This document shows positions 2,689 through 61,907 of a DNA stretch of 64,000 nt, one piece after another. Within the stretch, counting starts at the first letter, position 1, and the number at the start of each line of letters is the position of its first letter. This DNA is from a virus (lineage: Duplodnaviria; Heunggongvirae; Uroviricota; Caudoviricetes): IMG/VR virus record IMGVR_UViG_2513237368_000009. One strand, given 5' to 3'. The translations under genes were made by a program, and so were the position numbers. Under the pieces are notes generated by a model. It saw only the letters and a program-made list of their open reading frames with translations. It did no database searches and was not told the DNA's origin.

Positions 2689-3174
2689 ATGCAAAACAGA
2701 ATGGACGATTTATTAGAGAATTTGATAGAAGATGAATTTTCATTGGAAATATTGAATTATCTTAAAAATAATAATATTGCGGTAGATATTAGTGAAAATG
2801 ATATTCTAATGAATAGTGAAAGAGATATCATTACAATGTATTATATTCTAAATTGCTATAAAAAATGTGAACTAGAAGCAGTTGTAGAATGTATATCTAA
2901 ATGTGAATTATATGATATCGAAAACATGGTTGTAGAGAATATCCATGATTTTGAATGGTGCTTTGGAACTCAACAGTTTCCCAATCCATTTTTACAAATA
3001 ACTGCTAGTGAAATTAAAGAACTGACCTCTCTAATGTCCAATGAACATATCTCTAACTTCATTCATTCTGAACTTAAAAACTGTTATCGCTTTGGTGTAA
3101 TATCAACAAGTAGAATGCTGTTAAAATTTTTAAGTAGATTAAAGGCACACAAAAACACAAAAATTTTAATATGA
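2689..3174 (+). CDS. hypothetical protein
   Basis: ORF track; RBS GGGAG; terminator follows. Confidence 0.4.
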   Translation: MQNRMDDLLENLIEDEFSLEILNYLKNNNIAVDISENDILMNSERDIITMYYILNCYKKCELEAVVECISKCELYDIENMVVENIHDFEWCFGTQQFPNPFLQITASEIKELTSLMSNEHISNFIHSELKNCYRFGVISTSRMLLKFLSRLKAHKNTKILI

Positions 3175-3183
3175 TTGATAAGA

Positions 3184-3215
3184 ATAAGGTTATGAATAAT
3201 AGCCTTATTTTTTTG
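3184..3215 (+). terminator. rho-independent terminator (ATAAGG..13 nt..CCTTAT + T7)
   Basis: hairpin plus T-run seen directly. Confidence 0.5.
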
Positions 3216-3288
3216 ATTTAAACCGAGTATTTTGTTTACACGAGGTCGATAATTTGATATACTATGCTTTGTTCAGGAGGTGTGGAAG

Positions 3289-3921
3289 ATGAATGGAGCA
3301 ATTATCATGGCGAGTTTTGCTGGATCTGGAAAAGATACAGTAGCAGATATGCTAGTTAAAGATTACAATTCTATCTTTAAGCAAAAAGCCGATAAACTCT
3401 CTCTAGGAAAAGAAATTCATAACATTGCAAACAAATTTTTTTGTTTTAATAGTAGTAATATTACAATGAGAAAAGCAATGCAAGAAATTGGAGAGGGCAT
3501 GAGAAGAATCTTTGGTGAGAATATTTGGATAAATTATTTAAAAAAAGAATATTATTCAAGTGATCTTGGTTATGTCTTGATACCAGACGTTCGTAAGCTA
3601 ATTGAGTTTTCAACTTTCTTTGTTGAAGATGGGCTTAAGGCAATCTATATTAAGACAGACAAAGACAAAGCACTAGAAAGAATCAAAAATAGAGATGGGT
3701 ATGCGGATAAGAAATCAATTGAAGACACTAACATTGAAAAACAGATGTCTTTTATTGAGAAGCTGCCGACAAAAACTATTTCTAAAAGTGGCTTAAAGGT
3801 CACATGCAACTCAGGTGTATTCAGTGATATTTATGTAATTGACAATACTCGTGGGTTAGATAATTTAAAAAAACAGGTTGAAGAATGGGAGGTACGAAAT
3901 TGGCTGAACAAGGACAAATAG
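3289..3921 (+). CDS. P-loop kinase, dNMP kinase-like
   Basis: AGGAGG 8 nt before ATG at 3289 (track used GTG 3280); Walker A ASFAGSGKDT typical of phage deoxynucleotide monophosphate kinases. Confidence 0.45.
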   Translation: MNGAIIMASFAGSGKDTVADMLVKDYNSIFKQKADKLSLGKEIHNIANKFFCFNSSNITMRKAMQEIGEGMRRIFGENIWINYLKKEYYSSDLGYVLIPDVRKLIEFSTFFVEDGLKAIYIKTDKDKALERIKNRDGYADKKSIEDTNIEKQMSFIEKLPTKTISKSGLKVTCNSGVFSDIYVIDNTRGLDNLKKQVEEWEVRNWLNKDK

Positions 3922-4493
3922 TTGCTACACACGCAGTAAATTTCTCTTACATCATTAATATGGATAAGCTATTTTCAAAAGAAAATATTAGTGGGTTAAG
4001 AATGGTTTACGGTACTAATGACGAGAATGAAATTTTGAAAAGAATTATGCAAGAACAAGAAAGTAAGATACAACAAGTGTTAAACAGAAACATTTTTGTT
4101 CCAATTGGAGCTACTTGTGAACGTTACGATTCTTACGTTGAAAGACAGAAAAAGATAATGGAACAAATGAATATGGGGCAAGAACAAAGTGTCCAAGGTA
4201 ATCAAGAAACTGCTGATAGTAGTAATATTGACATTAAGGACGAAACAAGAGATAATAAAGAGGAACATTTCGTTCTTTCTGATCAAGAAAGCGAGTTGCT
4301 AAACAATATAGCACAAAGCATTTTTGAATTATCTTCAAAGGGGATCTTGATAGAAAAAATTATGGTGTCAGATAAACTCTCACACGAGGCAGTTCTTAAT
4401 TTATCTAATCAGTATCGGAAACCAATTGTAAAAGGTAAGTTAGCATTGAATGAGTTCAAAATTATTGAAAAAGAAAATACGGAGGCGGAATAA
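3885..4493 (+). CDS. hypothetical protein
   Basis: ORF track; start uncertain. Confidence 0.3.
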   Translation: MGGTKLAEQGQIVATHAVNFSYIINMDKLFSKENISGLRMVYGTNDENEILKRIMQEQESKIQQVLNRNIFVPIGATCERYDSYVERQKKIMEQMNMGQEQSVQGNQETADSSNIDIKDETRDNKEEHFVLSDQESELLNNIAQSIFELSSKGILIEKIMVSDKLSHEAVLNLSNQYRKPIVKGKLALNEFKIIEKENTEAE

Positions 4494-4494
4494 T

Positions 4495-5688
4495 ATGGCG
4501 ACAAAGACAAAAGCTAAATTGGAAACAGAATTAAAGCAAGGTTTTGCAATGTTTAGAGCTTGGGGCGAAGTCAGCATAAATGACGACACTTTCAATGGTG
4601 TTCAAACGTCAGAAAAGACTGGTTACAAGTATGTGAACGTTAATTTCCCACTTAAATTAGGTGATGGCAAGCAAGTATACCTTCAATTAATGGACGGATA
4701 TCAACCAGCTAAGCCGATTCTTAAACGATTCTCTAAGAAAGCTGACGAAGGCATGATGGATATTAAGTGGGAGTTCCGTAACAAGAAAGATATTTTGGAA
4801 AATGTTGCTCCACAAAGTTTCATTAATGTTCGTTTGGAGAAAGACGACAATGGTAAATTAATCCATAAGCAATTCTTGTCAGGTATTGATGCAGCGGAAT
4901 ACATGGAGAAATTCCTTGAAAATGGTCAAGAAGTATTTGTAAGTGGCCGAGTAGAATATTCACGTTACAATGACGAAGTTCAAAGACGATTCAACATTAA
5001 GAATATTTCATTGAACGAAGGCTATACACGTAAGGGCGAAGAAGTACCCGCACATGAACATGAATTTAATGTTGAACAAACATATTTGATTGAAAAAGAT
5101 TCAATTTCTTCCCGTTCAGCTAAGGAATTAAAAGAAGAAGGACGCACAGTTATTGATGCCTACGTGCCACAATATGTAAGTAAGGAAAATGGTCATGAAG
5201 TTAAAGATACACTTGCATTGCCACAACAGATTGTCTTTACTGCAAACGAAGATAATATTGACGTACGTTTGAAAATTTTGGATAAGCTATTCAAGATGAA
5301 AAGTCGTGACGTTGTGCGAGAACTCGTATTGAAGATTGCAGTAAATGAAGGCTACGATCAAGCTACTGGAGACATTGAATTAACACCAGAAGTGCAAGAG
5401 TTAATTGATTTAGGGTTCACTACCAAAGAAGACGTTAAGAAGGAACTTACGATTCGTGGGAATAAAATTAGTGAATTGATTTTTGATGGCATTAAGATTG
5501 TCAAAGATAAGGAAACAGATAAGGCTAAAATGGCTGTCAGAGATCGTTATGACATTAGTGTTTTGAGTGTTGCTGATGAAGACGAAGAAGAAGTAATCAA
5601 GGACACAGATGAAGACGAAGACAATCCATGGGACGATGGTTCAAAAGGTGTAATAAGTGACGATAAATTTGAGGCTATGTTCGATTAA
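4495..5688 (+). CDS. hypothetical protein with acidic C-terminal tail (possible ssDNA-binding-type protein)
   Basis: GGAGG 9 nt before ATG 4495 (MATKTKAK); C-terminal EDEEEV..DEDEDNPWDDG acidic tail. Confidence 0.4.
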   Translation: MATKTKAKLETELKQGFAMFRAWGEVSINDDTFNGVQTSEKTGYKYVNVNFPLKLGDGKQVYLQLMDGYQPAKPILKRFSKKADEGMMDIKWEFRNKKDILENVAPQSFINVRLEKDDNGKLIHKQFLSGIDAAEYMEKFLENGQEVFVSGRVEYSRYNDEVQRRFNIKNISLNEGYTRKGEEVPAHEHEFNVEQTYLIEKDSISSRSAKELKEEGRTVIDAYVPQYVSKENGHEVKDTLALPQQIVFTANEDNIDVRLKILDKLFKMKSRDVVRELVLKIAVNEGYDQATGDIELTPEVQELIDLGFTTKEDVKKELTIRGNKISELIFDGIKIVKDKETDKAKMAVRDRYDISVLSVADEDEEEVIKDTDEDEDNPWDDGSKGVISDDKFEAMFD

Positions 5689-11531: not shown

Positions 11532-11802
11532 AGATTTAACTTTTAGAATTAAAAGAGATTTTGGAATGACGAAATTTCTCATTAAATGTCGTCCAAATTA
11601 TATGTTCAAGACCACACATGTTGGTGGAGATTCTTTTGAACAAATTAACACTAATAGTAATGTAGTTGTGAAAGAACAAGAGATTAACAAATTAATTGAA
11701 AACGGCAAGACGGTTGTTGTCTTATATGAAGCAGAGCTTAAAATGGACTGCTACAATTTTGAAGATGGAGTTGCGCTATTGAACATGGTGGTGTCTTGTT
11801 AA
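11512..11802 (+). CDS. hypothetical protein
   Basis: ORF track. Confidence 0.3.
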   Translation: MSILGNEDLTFRIKRDFGMTKFLIKCRPNYMFKTTHVGGDSFEQINTNSNVVVKEQEINKLIENGKTVVVLYEAELKMDCYNFEDGVALLNMVVSC

Positions 11803-14078
11803 TGGCAGATACAGAAAGTGTTAAAATCACAGGAAGGTTGAACAGAATTAAATTTGAGTCACAAGATAATGACTTCAAAATAATGGATATTGCGTGTGAA
11901 GACGGCCAGTTAAGGACTCTTAAAGGTGATGCGGATATACTGTTTAATACCGATTATGAGTTTACTTGTTCAATTGAGAATCACCCACGGTTCGGGAAGC
12001 AATATACTATCCAGTATATGAAACGTAAGAAACCGATTGACTCTCTTAGTCAAGAAGATTTTAAAGAGTTCCTAAACATTGCAGTAGGTGGAATTAAAAC
12101 AAAGGCTATTTATGAAACGTTGGAAGATCCTATCGCAGTTTTCAAGAATGGAGATATTGAAGCGTTAAAGACAATCAAAGGTATTGGCGATAGTTATGCT
12201 AATAAGTTGTTGGAGACATACGAATCCCAAAAAGATTACAGCGAAGGATATATTGAGTTTAGTAAGTGGGGTTTCACTCCTAAGTTCACAAGAAAGGTTA
12301 TTAAGAAAAAGGGTTCAGTTGAGTTAGCAATCAAAGCACTCAAAGAAAATCCATATAGCCTCATGGAATTATCGGGAGTTGGTTTTAAAACGATAGATAA
12401 CAAAGCCTTAGAGCATGGTATCAAACCTAACGATAAAAGACGTGTTAGAGCGTTCATTGAGAATTTCTTTAGTAATCTTGCTATGGACGGGAACTCATAT
12501 ATCAATTTGAATAAGTTTTTGCTTTATTTGAAGAATGAGATCTTTGAGTGTGACTTGAAATATATAACAAAATATTTAGCTGAAAGTGATAAATATGTTG
12601 TATATACTCATGAAAACGAACGAAGAATAAGTACCAAAATGACTTTTAATACATTACAAGGTATATCAAGAGAATTGTTGAGAATATTGCTATGCAAGAA
12701 ACACTTAAAAATTGAGGGTCAGGATAAGATTGTTAAAAAGACCGAGGAAGAACAAGGTTGGGAATATTCTGATGAACAGCGAAATGTTATTGATCAGATG
12801 ACGAAATATAACGTCTTTCTTCTACAAGGTTTAGCTGGTACTGGTAAAAGTTCTGTCGTTAATGGTTTCCTACAAATATTACAGCAGAATAATTATGAGT
12901 ATAAACAATGTGCATTGTCTGGTAAGGCTGCTCAAAATTTAGCTGGGATCACAGGTAAAATGGGAAGTACCATTCATTCATTGCTTGGATATACACAAGA
13001 AGGTTTCTTTTACAATGAAAACACGAAACTACCTACTCATGCCGTAATTTTAGATGAAATATCCATGGTTGATATAGATATCTTTTACGCATTGTTAAAG
13101 GCTATTCCTAGTGGAGCTAAGTTAGTTATGATTGGTGATAGCGGACAGTTGGATTCAATTGGTGTGGGTGTCATGGAAGAGATAATTAAGTCTAAGGCAA
13201 TTCCGACATTCACTTTGAAGAAGATTCATAGACAGGCGCAAGATTCCGCTATGATTACTCATTCAATAGCCTTTCGTAAAGGTAAATATCCATCAGAGTT
13301 ATCTACGAAACACAAGTATAAAGTTTATGGTTTTAAGAAAGATTTAGGATATACTTTTGTTCCTTCAAATGAGTCAAATATTCCGATTGAAACAATGAGG
13401 ATATATAAGACTTTGGTCAAGAAATTTGGTGTAGATGATACACAGATTATCACTCCGACAATCTCTTCTGGAACTACAAACTGTAACATGTTAAATGATA
13501 CGTGTCAGAAATTAGTCAACCCACCTAACCCCAATTTATTAGAGGTTGAATTAAATAGAGGTGGTGGAGAGAAGTTCATTATCAGAGAAAACGATCGGGT
13601 AATCAATACACGTAATAATCCTAGGACACAAGATGTTGACGGAAAGAGTTTGCCAATTTTCAATGGTAATACTGGAAGAGTTGAAGAGATTGTACTTAAT
13701 GCTGAGGGTCATTTAGATAAGATGACAGTTAATTTTGACGGTATTGGCAGAGTTATTATCGGGAGCAAGGATATAAAATACATTAATTTGTCTTATGCTA
13801 TGACAGTTCATAAGTCACAAGGTAGCACAATTAAATGTGTAATCGTATCTTTACCATTCCAATATATGTTAGATACACGAGAGCTGTTATATACAGCAAT
13901 CACTAGAGCATCTAATTTAGCCTATATCGTCACGTCACCTAAGACATTGAAGAGTACAGTTGGAAAATCAAGTAAGAAGTTACATGATAATGAACTAGGG
14001 GCATTAATTCGTTTACAAGCTATGAAAATTATAGAAAAGAACAAAAAGAAAGGAAGTAATAAGAATGAGGGTATTTAA
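11796..14078 (+). CDS. RecD-like SF1 ATP-dependent DNA helicase
   Basis: Walker A LQGLAGTGKSS, Walker B ILDEISM, C-terminal YAMTVHKSQGS motif typical of RecD/TraA-like helicases; N-terminal HhH-like region. Confidence 0.65.
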   Translation: MLMADTESVKITGRLNRIKFESQDNDFKIMDIACEDGQLRTLKGDADILFNTDYEFTCSIENHPRFGKQYTIQYMKRKKPIDSLSQEDFKEFLNIAVGGIKTKAIYETLEDPIAVFKNGDIEALKTIKGIGDSYANKLLETYESQKDYSEGYIEFSKWGFTPKFTRKVIKKKGSVELAIKALKENPYSLMELSGVGFKTIDNKALEHGIKPNDKRRVRAFIENFFSNLAMDGNSYINLNKFLLYLKNEIFECDLKYITKYLAESDKYVVYTHENERRISTKMTFNTLQGISRELLRILLCKKHLKIEGQDKIVKKTEEEQGWEYSDEQRNVIDQMTKYNVFLLQGLAGTGKSSVVNGFLQILQQNNYEYKQCALSGKAAQNLAGITGKMGSTIHSLLGYTQEGFFYNENTKLPTHAVILDEISMVDIDIFYALLKAIPSGAKLVMIGDSGQLDSIGVGVMEEIIKSKAIPTFTLKKIHRQAQDSAMITHSIAFRKGKYPSELSTKHKYKVYGFKKDLGYTFVPSNESNIPIETMRIYKTLVKKFGVDDTQIITPTISSGTTNCNMLNDTCQKLVNPPNPNLLEVELNRGGGEKFIIRENDRVINTRNNPRTQDVDGKSLPIFNGNTGRVEEIVLNAEGHLDKMTVNFDGIGRVIIGSKDIKYINLSYAMTVHKSQGSTIKCVIVSLPFQYMLDTRELLYTAITRASNLAYIVTSPKTLKSTVGKSSKKLHDNELGALIRLQAMKIIEKNKKKGSNKNEGI

Positions 14079-16902: not shown

Positions 16903-17082
16903 ATGAGTCAGAAGAGAGCTAGAAAATGGTACGATCAGTTAAAGGACACAAAGGTTCGTATGCGCAATGATGGTCATGAGATGTGGATTGAAAATAACAC
17001 TCTTGTCACTAGGAATATAGATAATGGCATTATTAGCAAGTATGATAAGTATGGATTTGTAATTGCAACAGAAATAATTTAA
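16903..17082 (+). CDS. small hypothetical protein (59 aa, not in ORF track)
   Basis: GAGGAGGAAAAG RBS then ATG 16903; stop TAA 17080. Confidence 0.4.
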   Translation: MSQKRARKWYDQLKDTKVRMRNDGHEMWIENNTLVTRNIDNGIISKYDKYGFVIATEII

Positions 17083-17100
17083 TAGTAGTAATATTGACAT
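17080..17100 (+). promoter_or_regulatory. conserved 21-bp motif, exact copy
   Basis: TAATAGTAGTAATATTGACAT then TTAGGAGG ATG. Confidence 0.6.
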
Positions 17101-17118
17101 TTAGGAGGTATAATAACA

Positions 17119-27214: not shown

Positions 27215-28680
27215 TATTTATAGGGTCGGTAACTAAGAAAACTTATGCTTTTAATCGTAAGATGAATTAGTGCCTTGACCGACCAGAATTGTATTCTGTT
27301 ACTTGGTTCTCAATATGCTGAAATTTTGGAGAAAAGCTTGACATCAAAGGAGGTGAACCTGAATGTATCAAGGCCTTAAACTACGGATATATCCTAATTT
27401 AGAACAACAAAAACAAATAGTTGAGAACTTTGGGGCAACTAGATTTGTTTGGAATCAGATGTTGGATATGCAAAGCAAGCGTTATAAAAATAATAAAGAT
27501 TCTAAGTTCTTAAATGGTTTTGCAATGAACTTCTTATTAAGGCAATTAAAAACAGAATATCCATGGTTAAAACAAGCTGAGAGCACCTCACTACAAGACA
27601 CTTGTGAAACTCTAGCTGTAGCTTTCCAAAGATTTTTTAAGAAGCTTGGGGGATATCCTAAATTTAAGTCGCGAAAATTTCCAAAGCAAAGTTTTAAATC
27701 TAAATGTATAAATAACAATGTTAGATTGATTGATAATCATTATTTGAAGCTGCCTAAATTAGGCATTATGAAGTACAGAGGGAAATTCACTGATGACAAA
27801 ATCAAGTCAACGACTATCCAGTTAAGTCCAACAGGCAAGTTCTATTGCGTTTTACTAATTGAGTGTGAAAATCAAACACAATTTAGTAAGACAAATAAAA
27901 CTGTCGGTTTGGATATGGGGATAGCTGATTTAATAATTACATCAGATGCTGTTAAATATCCGACAATTAGGTTTGATCAGATTCTTGCTAAGAAGAAACA
28001 CTATTGGGAAAAACGACTAGCTAGAAGAAGGCTATTAGCACAAAAAGAAATAGCTTGGGATAAACACAACAAAGTCGTTGAACCTAGAGAACTAGCCAAC
28101 TTTAAGAACTATACCAAGGCTAAACAGATGGTCGCTAAATATAGTGAAAAGATAGCTAACCAGAGGAAAGATTATCTTCATAAGATTACAATTGGGTTAG
28201 TTAAAGACTATGACAAAATAGTGATTGAAGATTTGAAAACTAATAATATGATTAAGAATCACAAATTAGCCAGAGCAATCGCTAACCAATCTTGGAGAAT
28301 GCTTAGACTAATGTTGGAATATAAGTGCAAATGGTATGGCAAAGTCCTTAGTGTGGTTAATCCATACAAGACTAGTCAACTCTGCTTTAATTGTGGATAT
28401 GATGATGGTAAACACGAACTAGATATTCGTGCTTGGACTTGTCCTCAATGCCATACACAGCTAGATAGAGATGTAAACGCAAGTAAAAATATATTAAAAC
28501 TTGGTTTGGGCTAAACCTTAGTAAATAGAGTAAACCGCTGTCGAATACTGAAATGTATGAGATAAGTTATGCTTGTTCCTAGAAGCTCGGTACTTTAGTG
28601 CCGACGTAAGTCACACAACAATGAGTACAAGGTTTTCGATACAGCGGGTACAAAATTACCAGAGGGTGACGAGTTTATCA
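27215..28680 (+). mobile_element. IS200/IS605-family element carrying tnpB only (IS1341-like); ends approximate
   Basis: left subterminal hairpin GGTCGGT...ACCGACC (27223-27284); similar TAGTGCC..CCGAC at right end; omegaRNA-like structured 3' region 28515-28680. Confidence 0.5.
27363..28514 (+). CDS. tnpB: TnpB (OrfB) RuvC-like RNA-guided nuclease of IS200/IS605 family
   Basis: N-terminal LKLRIYPNLEQQKQIVENFGATRFVWNQ; C-terminal zinc finger CFNCGY...CPQCHTQLDRDVNASKNIL. Confidence 0.7.
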   Translation: MYQGLKLRIYPNLEQQKQIVENFGATRFVWNQMLDMQSKRYKNNKDSKFLNGFAMNFLLRQLKTEYPWLKQAESTSLQDTCETLAVAFQRFFKKLGGYPKFKSRKFPKQSFKSKCINNNVRLIDNHYLKLPKLGIMKYRGKFTDDKIKSTTIQLSPTGKFYCVLLIECENQTQFSKTNKTVGLDMGIADLIITSDAVKYPTIRFDQILAKKKHYWEKRLARRRLLAQKEIAWDKHNKVVEPRELANFKNYTKAKQMVAKYSEKIANQRKDYLHKITIGLVKDYDKIVIEDLKTNNMIKNHKLARAIANQSWRMLRLMLEYKCKWYGKVLSVVNPYKTSQLCFNCGYDDGKHELDIRAWTCPQCHTQLDRDVNASKNILKLGLG

Positions 28681-49050: not shown

Positions 49051-49064
49051 GTCTTTCCTCCTAA

Positions 49065-49089
49065 ATGTCAATATTACTACTATTAAATT
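49065..49089 (-). promoter_or_regulatory. conserved motif, exact copy on minus strand, abuts SD of HAD gene
   Basis: minus: AATTTAATAGTAGTAATATTGACAT then TTAGGAGG. Confidence 0.6.
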
Positions 49090-49256
49090 GGTTCGATTGT
49101 CTTGCTATTGAGATCAGCAAAATACAAAGCGTCCCTACTATCCATAAAAGTAAATTCCTTATCTTCACCATCTGGCAGTATGTCGTGAATGTGTTTAATG
49201 TTGTTCTTCGCTGCAAGTTTCTTGACAGCTTTCAGTTCTGAATGTTTGACTTCCAT
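49083..49256 (-). CDS. small hypothetical protein (57 aa, not in track)
   Basis: RBS TTAGGGG then ATG 49256; motif copy upstream. Confidence 0.35.
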   Translation of the reverse strand: MEVKHSELKAVKKLAAKNNIKHIHDILPDGEDKEFTFMDSRDALYFADLNSKTIEPI

Positions 49257-49315: not shown

Positions 49316-50660
49316 AAGACTCATAGCTAATATCGTCAATATTTTTATCCGAACGTACACTCTTGAACGTTGGGAATCTCAGTGACTTACCACCATTTTG
49401 ATTTTCACTCTCTTCAAAATACTGAACATCAATGATTTTACCGATAATATCTTCAGGGTTATTCCAGTATTTAACTCTATCATCTTCAGTAAAACCAGAT
49501 CCAACTTGAACCTCAAAATCTTTGAATTGAATAATAACTCCACCTAGCTTATTCTTATTTGCTCCCGTTCCCTCATAAACGTCTTTTACGAGTACGTCTG
49601 CATTAAAGAATTGCTTAATCTTCAATAGGTCTGGTGTACGTTTTGTCTTATAAAAGCTGTCATTAAAGTTGAGCATGAGTCCTTCCCAACCTAACTTCTT
49701 AACTTTCTCATCTTGCAGTTTTGCAATAATGCTAGTATCATTTCCAGAATACAATGTAGGAACGATTTTTAATTTGAAATCTGTGGCAACCATATCATAA
49801 CTTGATGTGAATGTTACATATGATTCAGCCAACTTAGATTTTCTGTCAAGATAAGCTAGTTTAGATTCGCCCTCAAAAAATTCATCAAGTGGTAACCAGT
49901 CAAATACATTAAATAAAATACCAGTTTTATCAGCTTTGTCATTTTTCAATACTTTTGCTGTTGCTCTGAATAGGTCTTTAGTTTCGAGATTATCCTTATT
50001 ATCCAGAACTAGTTCACCATCTAATACTACTGGCTTACCTTGATTGATAATATTTGCCAATACCTCAACTTGTTTTCCCAATAGGTCAAGTCCAACATAT
50101 CTAATTCCTTGTCGTGTGAAGAATGCGACCTCGACACCATCACAGATAGCAACACAACGGTGTCCATCTAGTTTTTGTGTGATACTAAAATCTCTTCCAC
50201 TTTCAACTCTGTCTGGATATTTGTTCATAGGATAAGCCAACTGGCAACTGAACTCCTTGATAAAGCCTTTACACAATGCTTTGTTAATCGACTTAGCTGT
50301 GATCCCAACTTTGATATTCTTAGCAAAAATGTTAAGGATAAATTGTTCAACGCTTTCTGAATACTTCTTAGCGAAATTTTTAATGTTCGATACTACTTGT
50401 AATTTACCAGTATTGTTTTCTTCAACATATTCCATTAATTCAAGAATGTTGTTAAAATCTTGATCTGGTTCAACCAAATCAGTTACCGACATTTTCTTTG
50501 TACTGATACCTGTACGGATAAAATCGTCAAACACAAATTTCAAGACTTCTTTGAATAATATGTTATCCTCATTTTCTTTAATGATAGATACCTTTTCATT
50601 TTTTGAAGATGTTTCAGAGATACGCTGGAAGATAGTTGCTATTTCGATAATGTTTTGCAT
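49314..50660 (-). CDS. ATP-dependent DNA ligase
   Basis: motif I KLDGHR (KxDG), EGLMLNF motif IV, K-rich motif V. Confidence 0.6.
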   Translation of the reverse strand: MQNIIEIATIFQRISETSSKNEKVSIIKENEDNILFKEVLKFVFDDFIRTGISTKKMSVTDLVEPDQDFNNILELMEYVEENNTGKLQVVSNIKNFAKKYSESVEQFILNIFAKNIKVGITAKSINKALCKGFIKEFSCQLAYPMNKYPDRVESGRDFSITQKLDGHRCVAICDGVEVAFFTRQGIRYVGLDLLGKQVEVLANIINQGKPVVLDGELVLDNKDNLETKDLFRATAKVLKNDKADKTGILFNVFDWLPLDEFFEGESKLAYLDRKSKLAESYVTFTSSYDMVATDFKLKIVPTLYSGNDTSIIAKLQDEKVKKLGWEGLMLNFNDSFYKTKRTPDLLKIKQFFNADVLVKDVYEGTGANKNKLGGVIIQFKDFEVQVGSGFTEDDRVKYWNNPEDIIGKIIDVQYFEESENQNGGKSLRFPTFKSVRSDKNIDDISYES

Positions 50661-51361
50661 TGTGATTTCTCCTTTTTTATGTCAAATTTATTTTCAATTC
50701 TTGTCTTAGCTACGTCAAAATACTCTTCGTTTAGCTCTATGCCAATAAATCTACGTTTTAGGTTTAAGGCTGCTATGCCTGTTGACCCACTACCCATGAA
50801 ACAGTCCAATACTATGTCATTCTCATTACTGTGTCGTAATATCAATTCTTCCATTAGTTCTACAGGCTTTTGTGTTGGATGAAACTTATTCTTACCAGAT
50901 ACAATAGGATATCTTAATTCAGAACGGTCATACTTATCTGATTGTCTATTGAAAGTCCATTTGCCCTTCTTAATAGCTACTATTGCAAATTCATAATCAA
51001 CAATATATCTTCTATCTCTATTTCTTGGCATTGGATTGGTCTTTTCCCATCTAATAAGGTCTTTTACTATCAATCCTGATTTTTCTAATTCTTTTGCGAT
51101 ATCCCCTAAATTTTTCCAATCATTAAACACGATCAACGTACCACCACGTTTAAGGGTACGAGCAGCATCACTTATCCATGTGAGAATGTCTGCATCATGA
51201 TCCCATGTACCAAAATCAATGCTACTTCTACCCATAGTGTCAAAGTTGTTATCTTTGGCAATATTATATGGAGGGTCTGTTAGAACTAAGTCAATGCTTT
51301 CATTGGGTATCTTTTTCATTGCCACAAGACAATCGCCATTTTGCAAGGCATATTTACTCAT
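50639..51361 (-). CDS. DNA methyltransferase (N6-adenine/N4-cytosine, DPPY class)
   Basis: LVLTDPPYNI and FMGSGSTGIAA (AdoMet motif I). Confidence 0.65.
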   Translation of the reverse strand: MSKYALQNGDCLVAMKKIPNESIDLVLTDPPYNIAKDNNFDTMGRSSIDFGTWDHDADILTWISDAARTLKRGGTLIVFNDWKNLGDIAKELEKSGLIVKDLIRWEKTNPMPRNRDRRYIVDYEFAIVAIKKGKWTFNRQSDKYDRSELRYPIVSGKNKFHPTQKPVELMEELILRHSNENDIVLDCFMGSGSTGIAALNLKRRFIGIELNEEYFDVAKTRIENKFDIKKEKSQCKTLSK

Positions 51362-52151
51362 GAACCAACTCCCCCTTCGCCTTTATGTCAATATTACTAC
51401 TATTGATACGCTCTTTAGCAATGTAAAAATAATCATCTTCCTTTTCAATACCCAAAAATCTACGACTAGTATTTAAACAGGCGACACCAGTTGAACCTGA
51501 ACCCATACAGTTATCTAACACTAGGTCATTTTCATTTGTATAAGTTTTTATGAGATATTCAAGTAATTCAACGGGCTTTTGGGTCGGATGCAGCCTATCC
51601 TTGTTTACAATGTTAGATACAGTAACTATACTTGTGGGATATTTCATATTGCTATCCTGAGCTTTTGTATAATTCTTGTGATCATAACTTCCGTACACTT
51701 TGCTATTGTCCATACTATTGCCTTTGTTTTCCCATTTCTTACCTCGTGAATGACTTGGCTCTCCACCTTCTGTCATTTGAGGATTATAGATTGGCAATTT
51801 TTTGTAGAACACAAGAATATCCTCATGTTTGCGCAAAGGCATTCGATTTGCATTAAGAAAACCTGTTGTCCTAACTTTGTCCCAAACCAACGTGTATCTA
51901 TACATTCTCTCATTTGATAAGATTAACTTAGCAGAGAAAGCGTTCTGACCAAACAGTACGATAGCACCATTTTCCTTAATGACTCTTTTATACTCTTTCC
52001 ATAATTCATCAAAAGGAATAATGCTATCCCATTTATTATGAGTAACCTTACCATACGGTAGATCACATAGAATCATGTCAATACTTCCATTAGGTATCTT
52101 CTGCATTACTTCAAGACAATCACCCTTTTGTAAGGCATATTTATTACTCAT
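51354..52151 (-). CDS. DNA methyltransferase (second, DPPY-like class)
   Basis: ILCDLPYGKV and CMGSGSTGVAC motifs. Confidence 0.6.
   Translation of the reverse strand: MSNKYALQKGDCLEVMQKIPNGSIDMILCDLPYGKVTHNKWDSIIPFDELWKEYKRVIKENGAIVLFGQNAFSAKLILSNERMYRYTLVWDKVRTTGFLNANRMPLRKHEDILVFYKKLPIYNPQMTEGGEPSHSRGKKWENKGNSMDNSKVYGSYDHKNYTKAQDSNMKYPTSIVTVSNIVNKDRLHPTQKPVELLEYLIKTYTNENDLVLDNCMGSGSTGVACLNTSRRFLGIEKEDDYFYIAKERINSSNIDIKAKGELVHE
51385..51408 (-). promoter_or_regulatory. conserved motif, exact copy, inside 3' end of upstream MTase gene and just upstream of downstream MTase SD
   Basis: minus: TATCAATAGTAGTAATATTGACAT then AAAGGCGAAGGGGGAG ATG. Confidence 0.55.
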
Positions 52152-58405: not shown

Positions 58406-58564
58406 ATTGTATCATAAAGAGCATATATTTACTACTTAATACTAGAATTAATATACATTTACTAGAAAATAGACCGAACTAATGCTTTAATAATAATATT
58501 AAGACAAAAAGGAATGAAGACAAGCAAGACATACATATACTCGGTAAGTTGGTTTATGCAGTAA

Positions 58565-59215
58565 GTGGAAATTACATTGAATAATGGAGGCAACAAAATG
58601 ACATTTAAGGATTCAGACAAAATCTCTAAATCCAGAATTATTAATTTAAGAGAAAAGAACAATCTTACACAAAATGAACTAGCTGAAAAAGTAGGTATAA
58701 ATAGATCTGTTTTAAATCGCATAGAGAATGGCTCTCGTCATCTAAGAGATGATGAGGTAGTTAAATTAGCTAATTATTTTCATGTTTCGACTGACTATCT
58801 TCTTGGGAATGATAGAATGCGTTGCGAAAACCACATTGAAGCGATATCCAAAGATTCAGATGAAATACTTAAAACCAAAATCATTAATTTGAGAGAGAAA
58901 AATAAGCTCACACAAAATGGGCTTGCAGAAAAAGTTGGACTCGATGCTACTATAATTAGCAAGATTGAAAATGGAACAAGAAAAGTGTCTAGCTCTGAAT
59001 TAAACAGGTTTGCTAATATTTTCTCTGTGTCCGCTGATTATCTTCTTGGGAATACGTCCAATAGATATCAAGATGAAGTGGATCTAAAAGACTTTTTAGA
59101 TCAGAATTTCAATAAAGGTATGAGTTATGCAGATGAGGAACTTACTGACGAAGATAAACAAAGATTAAAAATTGCACTCACTCAGATTTTTTGGAAATAT
59201 CATAATAAAAAATGA
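58565..59215 (+). CDS. XRE-family transcriptional regulator with two tandem HTH domains
   Basis: duplicated IINLREKN(N/K)LTQNELAEKVG...IENGSR modules. Confidence 0.65.
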   Translation: MEITLNNGGNKMTFKDSDKISKSRIINLREKNNLTQNELAEKVGINRSVLNRIENGSRHLRDDEVVKLANYFHVSTDYLLGNDRMRCENHIEAISKDSDEILKTKIINLREKNKLTQNGLAEKVGLDATIISKIENGTRKVSSSELNRFANIFSVSADYLLGNTSNRYQDEVDLKDFLDQNFNKGMSYADEELTDEDKQRLKIALTQIFWKYHNKK

Positions 59216-59539: not shown

Positions 59540-59893
59540 ATATAGTTACAAGGCTGCTTTTGAGGTCTATTACCTTGTTCGCAGCATTCAACGGAACTTG
59601 CGTATTCTAATTCAAAAACATGTAGTATTTGAAATGTGACCCACATTACTGATCACCCTCGCACCCTGTAATTATAAAAGAATTAATTTATAGTCGTACT
59701 TTAATCGACTTTTATCCAGCCAATAAATGCAAGTTCTATGGATTCACTCCTAACTTGCAATGCTCAGGGAAGGATTTGCACCTACATAGCCACAATGACG
59801 ACAGATTTACAGTCTGCGGAGTTCTCTAATACTCAGCCCAAGCGTGTTATTCTTATTTATTTGTTTCCAATTTTGAATCTAAAATCTGAGTAC

Positions 59894-60184
59894 GTTTTCC
59901 TTATCTAAAGGTTTTAATCTGACTAAAACGCATGTATGCTAACCATTGCAGTTTTCCCTATCTAAGGATTCTAGTCAAACTAAAACAAGAGCTTTCAATA
60001 CACATTTCAGTCCAGTGTTTTCCTTATCTAAGGATTCTAGTCAAACTAAAACGCTTTTTCGGAATATCCTATCTTGTCTGTAGTTTTCCTTATCTAAGGA
60101 TTCTAGTCAAACTAAAACTACAGTTGGAAAATCAAGTAAGAAGTTACAGTTTTCCTTATCTAAGGATTCTAGTCAAACTAAAAC
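59894..60184 (-). CRISPR. CRISPR mini-array: 5 x 36-bp repeats (consensus on + strand GTTTTCCTTATCTAAGGATTCTAGTCAAACTAAAAC), spacers of 21, 30, 30, 30 nt
   Basis: repeats at 59894, 59951, 60017, 60083, 60149; leftmost repeat degenerate with truncated spacer, so leader inferred at right and transcription on minus strand (repeat then reads GTTTTAG..., type II-A-like). Confidence 0.85.
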
Positions 60185-60287
60185 CTCAAAATATCCTATC
60201 ATCACTTCAAGGCTTCCTAGGAACTCCGAACCATTGTCCAGATATTTACTAGGCTATTATGGATTGATGGAAACTTCCAATCCTAAT

Positions 60288-60368
60288 GGAACTGGATAGA
60301 TTTGAACTATCTGAGCTTTTAACACTTCCAGTTATTGAGTATTACTAGCATTACCCAATTCAGTTCCG
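60288..60368 (-). tRNA. tRNA-like element (81 nt) with aberrant core; possible unusual or pseudo-tRNA
   Basis: perfect 7-bp acceptor GGAACTG/CAGTTCC and canonical T-arm GATAG-TTCAAAT-CTATC; D/anticodon arms could not be folded canonically by hand. Confidence 0.35.
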
Positions 60369-60970
60369 TTTTCGGGAGAAACTCTCTTTATACTGGTTCT
60401 CCTCTTGTTCCAGTTATGCAAGTGGCATGGATTCAAACCATACAGTGACTAACTTTATAATACTGGCTTACCTCGTACATTAGGTGTAGTCAGGTGTTCT
60501 CACGGTTTTACTCACGCAACCAGTCAAACCTTAGCGTTACTCTCTGCGCCACACTTGCTAGTAATCTACCCGAAGGAAACCAACCATAAGAAGGTCTAAG
60601 TAGTAGAATGGGAACTCACATGCCCCACTTGAATGGACGATTGCCTATACCACATCGCTCACGTTCTTTCCTTTTTAGTGACCACACTAGCAGCTCGGTA
60701 TAGAACCTACTCGTTGGATTTAATCTCAAACCCGATGATTCAATGTCTATATTAGCATTGAATTATTTTTGACTAGTCATAATTCCAAAAAACCGCCTTT
60801 GTGGGTCGAACCGAATTATGTTGACGAAATGTCTAGAGTGTCAATTCTATTAACATTTCACCCTTTTTGACATATCTAGGAAAGATTTGACTGATCTTTC
60901 AGTTGTATGCTAGTGCCAATGGATTGGGTTTAATTTATTACTGCGTATTTAAAGATTACTTTAAATACTA

Positions 60971-61039: not shown

Positions 61040-61258
61040 TACGATGCGTTTAATATAATCGCCAAATTATATTAAACGACTTTTAGGAGGCGAACCGCCA
61101 ATAAAAAACGTAATATGACCAGTAGGAATCGAACCTACAAGCCTCGCCAGTGTAAGACCTATTATTTCAAGGTGAATATTACATACTGTCGTCTGCCAGA
61201 CGAGGGTAATACCGCAAATAGCCATAACTTAATTATAATATAACATATCATATTAAAT

Positions 61259-61321: not shown

Positions 61322-61621
61322 TTATAATCTCTTCATTCTTTCCTCAGCGACAGGTTGAAGTATATAAGGGAATCGAGGATTATCTGATGTCATCATTGCA
61401 AATCTCCCAGCCTTGCTTATTAATCCAAATTGTTCCAATAAATGAACTTTTTGGTTGTGTATTGGAAGATTTGCAGAATTAGGATGATTTCTATAGAGTT
61501 CTTTTAAAATTGTCATCGCTTCTGGATCTTGGAATAATTTTTCTTGCTGTTCGGTATAATATTTGTTAAAAGCCAAATCTCTTCTCTTTTTTGCTATTTT
61601 TTTACTTATACGAACCACCAA
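61322..61621 (-). CDS. hypothetical protein with N-terminal TM
   Basis: ORF track. Confidence 0.4.
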   Translation of the reverse strand: MVVRISKKIAKKRRDLAFNKYYTEQQEKLFQDPEAMTILKELYRNHPNSANLPIHNQKVHLLEQFGLISKAGRFAMMTSDNPRFPYILQPVAEERMKRL

Positions 61622-61907
61622 TAGAAAAAAAGAACCAAATAGAAAAATTAAGACAATATAATCGTAATTATCTAAAAAGTTTTCTAAATGAAGTTTTTTA
61701 AATAATTAGATGGTAAAAAATTTGCGGCCGATAAAAGAATACTCGTTGAGAATGTAGCAATCAAAACTTCAAAGCTAATGGGTTTTCTTAGAAAATCAAT
61801 AACTTTATCGAACATTTTATTATACTCTCTTTTCTATAGTAGGAATTAGTATGCTGTTTAATATACTATAATATAAATACTTTTTCATTATATCATATTT
61901 AATTTTA

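What the first reader, a model, noticed from the sequence alone, without database searches (positions are those of the whole stretch)
13955..13984. Array spacer 4 (60119-60148) is a perfect 30/30 match to the phage's own RecD-like helicase gene
Spacer TACAGTTGGAAAATCAAGTAAGAAGTTACA is identical to + strand 13955-13984, inside the 760-aa RecD-like helicase CDS in the same window. A phage carrying a spacer against its own essential replication gene is paradoxical. One possibility is superinfection exclusion of close relatives, with self protected by PAM absence. The local flanks are 5' ..CATTGAAGAG and 3' TGATAATGAA... Another possibility is deliberate host-Cas-mediated self-processing. A third is that the locus was recently acquired from a host whose array targeted this phage.
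Basis: seen in the sequence. Interest (0 to 1): 0.9.

Follow-up and report, generated by a model that had tools for sequence, protein, structure and literature searches.

The report
Phage-borne CRISPR array matching its own helicase
A 127-kb phage-like plasmid living in the cider bacterium Liquorilactobacillus mali carries a small CRISPR array without cas genes, and its newest spacer is a perfect copy of the element's own helicase gene; this is a rare self-match that is probably harmless here because the host's Cas9 machinery cannot read this array.

Summary
The 30/30 match is real. Spacer and target lie on one replicon, a ~126.6-kb extrachromosomal phage-plasmid of L. mali DSM 20444.

**The array (59894-60184):**
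- It has five 36-nt repeats, spacers of 21/30/30/30 nt, and no cas genes or tracrRNA in the 83 kb examined.
- It sits inside a minus-strand tRNA cluster.
- It is absent from the relatives examined, and its repeat occurs in no searched collection.

**Direction of growth:**
- The sequence next to 60185 reads ATTTTGAG|GTTTT on the minus strand, the conserved type II-A leader end.
- Repeats degrade stepwise toward 59894.
- The self-matching "spacer 4" is therefore the newest, leader-proximal unit.

**The host system:**
- The published L. mali Cas9 system has a different repeat (20/36 identical).
- Its tracrRNA cannot form a normal duplex with the phage repeat, so the array is probably inert here.

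**The "PAM absent" idea fails on the + side:**
- TGATAA is exactly the PAM predicted for L. mali Cas9 (NNATAA).
- On the other flank, self (CTCTTCA) differs by one base from array-less relatives (CTCTTTA). That difference is not statistically significant.
- The relatives carry the identical 30-mer.

Strand-of-function clues conflict, so origin and use remain open. [quoted passage not shown]

The parts
13955..13984 (+). Self protospacer, 30/30 identical to the spacer at 60119-60148. It encodes residues ~718-728 of the helicase (sense strand).
   Evidence: It is identical in the relatives L006-L008. It lies in a 101-nt stretch (13950-14050) with no differences, in a gene that is only 89.3% identical overall.
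13985..13990 (+). 3' flank TGATAA, which equals NNATAA, the PAM predicted for L. mali Cas9. This applies to the + reading of the spacer.
   Evidence: PMC11929499 Dataset S1/S2. ATAA at this offset has a frequency of 0.0097 in the window.
13948..13954 (-). PAM-side flank if the spacer is read from the array's leader (minus sense): CTCTTCA. G13949 (position +6) is A in the array-less relatives, giving CTCTTTA; the change is a synonymous Leu TTG/TTA.
11802..14078 (+). RecD2-like helicase CDS (758 aa), a core gene of this phage-plasmid family.
60185..60286 (-). Probable leader. Its last 8 nt (60192-60185 read on the minus strand) are ATTTTGAG, directly abutting GTTTT of repeat R5.
   Evidence: The motif ATTTGAG/GTTT and its ATTTTGAG variants are described in PMC5382924. 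TTTGAG has a frequency of 3.3e-4 per position.
60149..60184 (-). Repeat R5 (leader-proximal). It matches the consensus: + GTTTTCCTTATCTAAGGATTCTAGTCAAACTAAAAC, - GTTTTAGTTTGACTAGAATCCTTAGATAAGGAAAAC.
60119..60148 (-).
60083..60118 (-). Repeat R4, identical to the consensus.
60053..60082 (-). Spacer 3 (30 nt); no target found.
60017..60052 (-). Repeat R3, identical to the consensus.
59987..60016 (-). Spacer 2 (30 nt); no target found.
59951..59986 (-). Repeat R2, with 1 mismatch.
59930..59950 (-). Spacer 1, truncated to 21 nt (the oldest); no target found.
59894..59929 (-). Repeat R1, degenerate (30/36 identical by my hand count; the mismatches are in the middle). This is the trailer-end repeat.
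60287..60367 (-). Non-canonical tRNA-like gene immediately upstream of the leader.
59761..59843 (-). tRNA-Tyr-like gene 50 nt downstream of the array. The array is embedded in a minus-strand tRNA cluster.
60815..60844 (-). Nearest good sigma-70-like promoter upstream of the array on the minus strand (TTGACA-18-CATAAT).
   Evidence: this is a consensus match only.

Best explanation
This is a genuine, recently integrated spacer in a cas-less, four-spacer, type II-A-style CRISPR array. The array is carried by a ~127-kb phage-plasmid resident in Liquorilactobacillus mali DSM 20444.

The array grew from the 60185 side, so the self-matching spacer is the most recent addition. A type II-A adaptation complex, acting on the phage-borne leader-repeat junction, copied a 30-nt piece of this phage lineage's helicase gene. 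The source was either the element's own DNA or a co-infecting close relative that carries the identical 30-mer.

The element survives because in this host the array is an orphan:
- its repeat is unrelated to the published L. mali Cas9 repeat;
- its leader-sense transcript cannot pair with that tracrRNA;
- the element supplies no cas genes or tracrRNA of its own in the 83 kb seen.

No usable guide RNA is therefore made.

Shown: the match, one replicon, the array architecture and polarity, absence from relatives, and the repeat/tracrRNA mismatch.

Inferred: which machinery integrated the spacer, and that the array is inert.
For: Match and replicon:
- The match is exact and non-random.
- Helicase and array are on the same NCBI contig. 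The contig's two ends join the 32-kb middle piece, which gives a closed ~126.6-kb element with no chromosomal flanks.
- The host is identified by PMC3393694.

Phage-plasmid nature:
- It carries a tail protein, an endolysin, a recombinase and a HigB-like toxin-antitoxin pair.
- Its relatives are separate 108-148-kb replicons.

Array growth from the 60185 side:
- ATTTTGAG|GTTTT matches the Group-1 type II-A leader end, which together with one repeat is reported to be sufficient for adaptation.
- TTTGAG occurs at only 3.3e-4 per position.
- R5 = R4 = R3, R2 has 1 mismatch, R1 has 6 mismatches, and the far spacer is cut to 21 nt.
- All neighbouring tRNA genes and the good promoters are on the minus strand.

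Orphan status:
- The L. mali repeat GTTTTTGCACTCTCAACATTTTCCTATCAATAAAAC is 20/36 identical to the phage repeat (hand count).
- Duplex energy with the L. mali tracrRNA is -10.5 (leader sense) and -21.3 (other sense), against -42.2 for the cognate repeat.
- There is no anti-repeat or tracrRNA-like sequence and there are no cas genes in the window plus 19 kb of flanks.
Against: - The self protospacer carries a perfect predicted host PAM (TGATAA) on the + side. If the host machinery selected it, the spacer is integrated 'flipped' relative to the leader, which to my knowledge is rare in vivo.
- The plus-sense repeat pairs 20 bp with the host tracrRNA, more than 99.45% of shuffles. Inertness is therefore not proven.
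- I could not verify that DSM 20444 itself, rather than the other sequenced L. mali strain, carries the published Cas9 locus, or that it has no second system.
- The L. mali PAM is an in-silico prediction.
- 43 kb of the element was not examined.
- Two of the three other spacers are full length with unknown targets, which hints at an earlier working life of the array.
Confidence: 0.42

Rival explanations
1. Interviral weapon with PAM-based self-sparing. In hosts that have a still-unknown cognate Cas9, the array supplies guides that destroy superinfecting relatives. Those relatives carry the identical 30-mer followed by CTCTTTA. The carrier escapes because its own flank is CTCTTCA.
For: - The protospacer is 30/30 identical in the closest relatives (a 125-kb L. 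hordei MAG contig and three metagenome contigs), and none of them has the array.
- It lies in the longest difference-free stretch of a gene that is only 89.3% identical; only 8.8% of 30-mers are conserved.
- The only difference within 45 nt upstream of the protospacer is a synonymous change at PAM position +6 in the leader-defined reading.
- A run from the SRR262158xx-159xx accession range holds a fragment identical to this element, and neighbouring runs hold the relative.
- There is precedent in archaeal virus mini-arrays (PMC6858448).
Against: - No cognate repeat, Cas9 or tracrRNA is known. The repeat is absent from 185,579 species genomes, JGI metagenomes, IMG/VR, PLSDB and GenBank phages.
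- The flank difference is not significant: 26.5% of conserved 30-mers have one.
- It needs the perfect host-type PAM on the opposite flank to be a ~1% coincidence.
- Known mini-arrays avoid self-targeting by mutations inside the protospacer.
Confidence: 0.25
2. Captured host immunity. A former host with a short array of this repeat type immunised itself against this phage lineage. The phage then picked up the leader-proximal array by recombination. G13949 is the escape mutation that let this lineage survive.
For: - The array block 59614-60718 is an insertion relative to the closest relative.
- Two spacers have unknown, non-self targets, as expected of a cellular array.
- The leader motif is intact.
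- Published work notes that phage mini-arrays may arise by recombination with host arrays.
Against: - No cellular array with this repeat was found.
- The leader is only ~100 nt and is flanked on both sides by phage-type tRNA genes, not by csn2 or bacterial sequence.
- The PAM-escape argument is statistically weak.
Confidence: 0.12
3. Counter-defence decoy. The array is a leader-competent but guide-incompetent sink that diverts the host's spacer acquisition. The self-derived spacer next to a host-type PAM would be one such wasted immunisation. In addition, or instead, its plus-strand RNA sponges the host tracrRNA.
For: - A conserved leader end is combined with a non-host repeat.
- The newest spacer is self-derived and flanked by NNATAA.
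- There is a 20-bp (8+12) complementarity of the + repeat to tracrRNA nt 19-44, including part of the nexus. The energy is -21.3, reached by 0.55% of shuffles.
- The element is multicopy-capable.
Against: - The spacer orientation is flipped relative to the leader.
- Only one of four spacers is self-derived.
- Context favours minus-strand transcription, and that RNA does not pair with the tracrRNA or with the host repeat.
- After several post-hoc tests, the p-values of about 0.01 are fragile.
- I know of no precedent.
Confidence: 0.08
4. Self-regulation. The minus-strand array transcript carries 30 nt antisense to the 3' end of the helicase mRNA. Alternatively a Cas9 guide nicks or cuts the element's own DNA as part of its life cycle.
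For: The likely transcript sense is antisense to the helicase mRNA.
Against: - The site is at codons ~718-728 of 758, a poor place for translational control.
- No relative has the array, so it is not part of the conserved life cycle.
- No compatible Cas9 guide scaffold was found.
Confidence: 0.03
5. Assembly artefact or chimeric contig.
For: - Short-read assemblies break at repeats in this element.
- Spacer 4 is covered by one public assembly only.
Against: - The insert is exactly 30 nt, bounded by perfect repeats in 66-nt register.
- Helicase and array are on one 94.7-kb contig.
- An independent assembly is identical up to the array edge.
Confidence: 0.02

Closest known systems
Virus-borne mini-CRISPR arrays used in interviral conflict (Sulfolobales portogloboviruses SPV1/SPV2, Medvedeva et al. 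2019, PMC6858448; phage/prophage mini-arrays of Faure et al. 2019, from my own knowledge)
   Same: - It is a short array on a viral replicon, with no cas genes, in an intergenic region, and preceded by a leader-like element.
- A spacer perfectly matches closely related viruses found in the same kind of habitat.
   Different: - Published cases have repeats and leaders like the host's, and the carrier's own locus is mutated or deleted so that it is not targeted.
- Here the carrier's own protospacer is 30/30 intact.
- The repeat matches neither the published host repeat nor anything in the searched collections.
- This array has 4 spacers, not 1-2.
Type II-A CRISPR arrays of 'Group 1' (S. thermophilus CRISPR1 / St1Cas9-like, including the L. 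mali Cas9 locus; Van Orden et al. 2017, PMC5382924; Sun et al. 2015, PMC4667430)
   Same: 36-nt repeats with GTTTT...AAAAC ends, exact 30-nt spacers, the leader end ATTT(T)GAG/GTTT, and a degenerate far repeat.
   Different: - No cas9, cas1, cas2, csn2 or tracrRNA is nearby.
- The repeat core is unrelated: 20/36 identical to L. mali, 23/36 to St1 (hand counts).
- The repeat sense suggested by tracrRNA pairing is opposite to the leader-defined sense. Among 56 natural loci only Globicatella sanguinis shows this.
Self-targeting spacers against resident prophages in bacterial CRISPR arrays (from my own knowledge)
   Same: There is a perfect spacer-protospacer pair within one cell lineage. It is tolerated, presumably because interference is disabled.
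   Different: Here both partners sit on the same mobile element, not on a chromosome and its prophage, and the array has no associated cas locus.
RNA anti-CRISPRs (Racrs) / solitary repeat units in phages (Camara-Wilpert et al. 2023, PMC10651486)
   Same: CRISPR-repeat-like RNA encoded by a phage without cas genes.
   Different: Racrs mimic the host repeat and are solitary. This is a five-repeat array with real spacers, and its repeat does not mimic the host repeat.

Membership tests
CRISPR array, type II-A style | Three or more direct repeats of ~36 nt separated by unique spacers of ~30 nt | tested here: met
   There are five repeats with start-to-start spacing of 57, 66, 66 and 66, and spacers of 21/30/30/30 nt.
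CRISPR array, type II-A style | Leader whose 3' end carries the conserved adaptation motif (ATTTGAG or CTRCGAG) abutting GTTT of the first repeat | tested here: met
   The minus strand reads GGATATTTTGAG|GTTTTAG at 60196-60178. ATTTTGAG variants occur in natural Group-1 loci. The background frequency of TTTGAG is 3.3e-4.
CRISPR array, type II-A style | Adjacent cas9-cas1-cas2-csn2 operon | tested here: not met
   There are no Cas domains in the window or in 19 kb of flanks, apart from an unrelated TnpB. 43 kb of the element was not seen.
CRISPR array, type II-A style | A tracrRNA with an anti-repeat complementary to the repeat | tested here: not met
   No anti-repeat of 12 nt or more and no tracrRNA-like sequence is in the window or flanks. 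The published L. mali tracrRNA gives -10.5/-21.3 kcal/mol against -42.2 for its own repeat, and pairs in a shifted register.
Virus-borne mini-CRISPR array (interviral conflict) | Located on a viral genome and lacking cas genes | tested here: met
   The element has a tail protein, an endolysin and replication genes, and closes as a ~126.6-kb replicon.
Virus-borne mini-CRISPR array (interviral conflict) | Repeat (and leader) matching the host's own CRISPR-Cas system so that host Cas proteins can be hijacked | tested here: not met
   Only 20/36 identical to the published L. mali repeat. There was no hit in the genome, metagenome, viral, plasmid or phage collections. Only the leader end and the repeat termini are host-like.
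Virus-borne mini-CRISPR array (interviral conflict) | Spacer matches closely related viruses | tested here: met
   30/30 in L006, L007 and L008. The other three spacers have no known target.
Virus-borne mini-CRISPR array (interviral conflict) | The carrier's own orthologous site is altered so that it is not targeted | tested here: inconclusive
   The protospacer is unaltered. One flank base differs from the relatives (13949), but that is compatible with chance, and the relevant PAM is unknown.
Chromosomal self-targeting spacer against a prophage | Array in the bacterial chromosome next to cas genes, with the target in an integrated prophage | tested here: not met
   Array and target are on the same extrachromosomal contig set, with no chromosomal flanks.
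RNA anti-CRISPR (Racr) | Solitary repeat unit that mimics the host repeat | tested here: not met
   There are five repeats with spacers, and the repeat does not mimic the host repeat.

The most novel reading that the evidence does not exclude
The array is a counter-defence device, not a weapon. It has a leader that the host's type II-A integrase can use, but a repeat that the host tracrRNA/Cas9 cannot use. A multicopy phage-plasmid carrying it would soak up spacer acquisition; the self-derived spacer next to the host PAM would be a fossil of one diverted immunisation. In addition, or instead, its plus-strand repeats base-pair 20 bp with the tracrRNA lower stem and nexus and so titrate it.
Probability: 0.08. 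Interest if true: 0.85.

Novelty: new variant of a known kind. Interest (0 to 1): 0.55.

Why it matters
Virus-borne mini-arrays are thought to work by borrowing the host's Cas proteins while carefully avoiding their own genome. This case breaks both rules: the self-match is perfect, and the repeat matches neither the published L. mali repeat nor anything in the searched collections. Yet the array keeps an intact type II-A leader end.

It can therefore show three things:
- whether mobile elements can be substrates of host adaptation;
- how self-targeting is tolerated on a mobile element;
- whether orphan arrays act as weapons, fossils or decoys.

The carrier is a culture-collection type strain (DSM 20444). 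Its Cas9, tracrRNA and predicted PAM are already published, so the alternatives can be tested directly with small-RNA sequencing, plasmid interference assays and leader-end amplicon sequencing.

Tried and rejected
**Searches for the repeat elsewhere (all negative)**
- The exact 36-mer, a 22-mer and a degenerate form (GTTTTCCYTATCTAAN{12,16}CTAAAAC) gave nothing in IMG/VR, GTDB species genomes or JGI metagenomes.
- BLAST against PLSDB and GenBank phages also gave nothing.

**Targets of spacers 1-3 (none found)**
- I searched the window, 19 kb of flanks, all fetched relatives, GenBank phages and IMG/VR.

**Looking up the host cas9 locus (failed)**
- I queried the protein database with the published N-terminal 399 aa of L. 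mali Cas9. Only fragments at 70% identity or less came back.
- The chromosomal array and leader of DSM 20444 could therefore not be examined.

**Sun et al. 2015 supplements**
- The CRISPR table (Table S7) is not held as text.

**Ideas considered and dropped**
- My first inference was minus orientation. I then swung to plus orientation after seeing the PAM and an apparent 23/36 similarity to the St1 repeat. A comparison with about 60 natural type II-A repeats showed that repeat similarity does not discriminate the strands, so I dropped that argument.
- Type V-A and type VI-A readings of the repeat (3' hairpin, ACTAAAAC end) were rejected. The hairpin position differs, the leader motif is type II-A specific, and a + sense spacer would not pair with the mRNA.
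- A link between the array and the TnpB at 27363-28514 was rejected: it is 32 kb away and is an ordinary IS605-type gene.
- Rfam gives only tRNAs in the region.
- The flank polymorphism is not significant as evidence of PAM escape.
Full report
**1. The observation**

The 30-mer TACAGTTGGAAAATCAAGTAAGAAGTTACA occurs exactly twice in the window, at 13955-13984 and 60119-60148, both on the + strand and with no mismatch. None of 100 shuffles gave a match.

The second copy sits between two perfect 36-nt repeats of a five-repeat array with 66-nt periodicity. The first copy lies near the 3' end of a RecD2-type helicase gene. The called gene starts at ATG 11802 and encodes 758 aa. The other three spacers have only background-level similarity to the window.

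**2. What the replicon is**

Exact-protein look-ups place the window in NCBI assembly GCA_001436535.1.
- Contig AYYH01000006.1 (94,695 bp) holds both the helicase (record 3029-5305) and the array region.
- That contig ends at window 17106 and, by arithmetic, at about window 49059. These are the two arms of a 43-nt inverted repeat.
- The 32-kb piece between them is a separate contig in a Logan assembly of SRR1151218. All these loci are 100% identical to the window.

The element therefore closes on itself at about 126.6 kb, with no chromosomal flanks.

A second, independent assembly, AKKT01000168.1, is identical up to window 60155, where it breaks inside the first repeat. AKKT is Lactobacillus (now Liquorilactobacillus) mali (PMC3393694).

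The element encodes:
- PolIII alpha, a DnaB-like helicase, a primase-like protein and a ligase;
- a PD-(D/E)XK nuclease and two DNA methylases;
- a GH25-LysM endolysin, a tail protein and a tyrosine recombinase;
- a HigB-like toxin-antitoxin pair just outside the window.

Homologous helicases sit on 108-148-kb 'plasmids' of Limosilactobacillus, Ligilactobacillus (for example the syntenic pMP1046B), Vagococcus and Bacillus, and on a 145-kb replicon of a complete L. hordei genome. It is thus a phage-plasmid rather than a contaminating lytic phage, and misassembly is an unlikely explanation for the self-match.

**3. Relatives**

No close relative is in GenBank phages or IMG/VR.

The large protein collection gave a 94%-identical helicase on a 125-kb contig of an L. 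hordei MAG and on several metagenome contigs.
- In all of them the protospacer is 30/30 identical, and the 3' flank TGATAA is also identical.
- The only nearby difference is A instead of G at 13949, a synonymous Leu codon change.
- The two helicase genes are only 89.3% identical. Only 8.8% of 30-mers are fully conserved, and the protospacer lies in the longest difference-free stretch.
- However, 26.5% of conserved 30-mers have a difference within the 7 nt upstream, so the flank change is not significant by itself.

At the position of the array, the closest relative has unrelated sequence. The block 59614-60718 and, separately, the double-HTH gene 58487-59206 have no counterpart there. Two more distant relatives and 90 kb of pMP1046B also lack any array. 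The array is therefore a private acquisition of this element.

**4. Anatomy and polarity of the array**

On the + strand the repeat is GTTTTCCTTATCTAAGGATTCTAGTCAAACTAAAAC.
- R5, R4 and R3 are identical, R2 has one mismatch, and R1 has six (hand count).
- The spacer next to R1 is cut to 21 nt.
- New repeats are copies of the leader-proximal repeat. This gradient therefore says the array grew from the 60185 side.

Read on the minus strand, the sequence abutting R5 is GGATATTTTGAG|GTTTTAG.
- Van Orden et al. showed that Group-1 type II-A loci, the group that includes St1-like systems, end their leaders in ATTTGAG/GTTT.
- They also report that ten leader nucleotides plus one repeat suffice for adaptation.
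- Their sequence file contains several natural ATTTTGAG variants.
- TTTGAG occurs at 3.3e-4 per position in the window.

All neighbouring tRNA and tRNA-like genes are on the minus strand, as are the two good promoter matches.

I conclude, with high confidence, that the leader is at 60185-60286 and that the self-matching spacer is the newest unit. The 36/30 geometry, the repeat termini and the leader motif make this a type II-A-style array. It has no cas genes, no anti-repeat and no tracrRNA-like sequence in the window or in 19 kb of flanks.

**5. The host's Cas9 system**

L. mali has a published short (1174 aa) St1-like type II-A Cas9 (Sun et al. 2015; PMC11929499).
- Its repeat is GTTTTTGCACTCTCAACATTTTCCTATCAATAAAAC.
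- It has a defined putative tracrRNA.
- Its PAM is predicted in silico as NNATAA.

Two points follow.
- The phage repeat is not the host repeat (20/36 identical). In the leader-defined sense it cannot pair with the host tracrRNA: -10.5 kcal/mol, within the range of shuffled sequences, against -42.2 for the cognate repeat. This gives a simple reason why a self-match is tolerated: the array is an orphan in this host.
- The + strand 3' flank of the self protospacer, TGATAA, is a perfect NNATAA. The frequency of ATAA at that offset is 0.0097.

**6. An unresolved conflict**

The plus reading gains support beyond the PAM.
- The plus-sense repeat pairs 20 bp (8+12) with tracrRNA nt 19-44, at -21.3 kcal/mol. 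Only 0.55% of core-shuffled repeats reach this.
- Among 56 natural type II-A repeats, an asymmetry of 10 kcal/mol or more between the strands occurs ten times in favour of the true crRNA sense. It occurs once in favour of the reverse, in Globicatella sanguinis.
- In that locus the leader-adjacent repeat is itself the reverse complement of the St1-like family repeat.

So the architecture says minus, while the two host-linked clues say plus.

Possible reconciliations:
- the spacer was selected by the host Cas9 but integrated flipped;
- there is a Globicatella-like 'inverted' subfamily;
- it is coincidence after several post-hoc tests.

Repeat similarity to about 60 known repeats does not discriminate the strands. 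I could not resolve this with the available tools.

**7. Best explanation and rivals**

I commit to the following (0.42). A type II-A adaptation complex integrated a fragment of this phage lineage's helicase gene at the phage-borne leader-repeat junction, and the result is tolerated because the array is an orphan in this host.

Rivals:
- an interviral weapon with PAM-based self-sparing in a host with an unknown cognate Cas9 (0.25);
- capture of a former host's array, with G13949 as an escape mutation (0.12);
- a counter-defence decoy or tracrRNA sponge (0.08);
- self-regulation (0.03);
- an assembly artefact (0.02).

No array with this repeat was found in any collection searched. That weakens both cognate-system models but does not exclude them, because only one genome per species was searched.

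**8. Comparison with what is known**

The closest known kind is the virus-borne mini-CRISPR array (PMC6858448).

It shares these features:
- a viral location;
- no cas genes;
- a leader;
- a spacer that matches close relatives.

It differs in two defining respects:
- the carrier's own protospacer is intact;
- the repeat is not host-like.

It is not a chromosomal self-targeting spacer and not a Racr-type solitary repeat. I therefore class it as a new variant of a known kind, of moderate-to-good interest. The main reason is that the strain and its Cas9 components are available, so the alternatives can be tested directly.

**9. Limits**
- I could not retrieve the DSM 20444 cas9 locus.
- I could not confirm that the published L. 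mali system is from this strain.
- 43 kb of the element was not read.
- The L. mali PAM and tracrRNA are predictions.
- Promoter hits are consensus matches only.

Noticed in passing
window 27363-28514 (+): A TnpB / IS605 OrfB gene (HTH_OrfB_IS605, OrfB_IS605 and Cas12f1-like TNB domains) sits inside the phage-plasmid. The related L. salivarius pMP1046B carries three TnpB genes in the 90 kb examined.
   Followed up: partly
window 17066-17108 and 49057-49099: A 43-nt inverted repeat (91% complementary) lies exactly where both public short-read assemblies break. The 32-kb segment between the arms could sit in either orientation or be invertible. The core motif TAGTAGTAATATTGACAT recurs at ~4216, 24281, 49043 and 61239 and looks like a reiterated phage promoter.
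   Followed up: partly
window 61322-61621 and 61684-61815 (-); L009 6547-7041: The superinfection-exclusion SieB homologue is split into two ORFs (99 + 43 aa) in this element. It is an intact 164-aa gene in the closest relative.
   Followed up: partly
window 58565-59215 (+): A double HTH_3 (Cro/C1-type) regulator lies 680 nt from the array on the opposite strand. Like the array, it is absent from the closest relative, but it is a separate insertion: the conserved tRNA-Trp region lies between them.
   Followed up: partly
window 60287-60367 and 61113-61211 (-): Non-canonical tRNA-like genes are found only at relaxed ARAGORN thresholds. One is directly upstream of the CRISPR leader, so tRNA processing could release the array transcript.
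   Followed up: no
window 50642-52151 (-): Two adjacent N6/N4 DNA methyltransferase genes, possibly for anti-restriction.
   Followed up: no
L018 5785-6380 (about 3.6-4.2 kb upstream of window position 1): A HigB-like toxin plus HTH antitoxin pair, consistent with plasmid-like maintenance of the element.
   Followed up: no
L014 11420-14747 (L. hordei CP049301.1): In the 145-kb L. hordei relative, the PolIII alpha gene is interrupted by a LAGLIDADG-type ORF (a homing endonuclease or intein). Several helicase homologues in the protein search carry intein-like insertions (~1100 aa forms).
   Followed up: no
Published data: Globicatella sanguinis NBRC15551 entry in PMC5382924, file LeaderRepeat_All.fa: Its leader-adjacent repeat is the reverse complement of the St1-like family repeat. 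It pairs with the L. mali tracrRNA only in the reverse sense (-33.4 against -11.4 kcal/mol). This is either a natural 'inverted' type II-A array or a mis-oriented record.
   Followed up: partly
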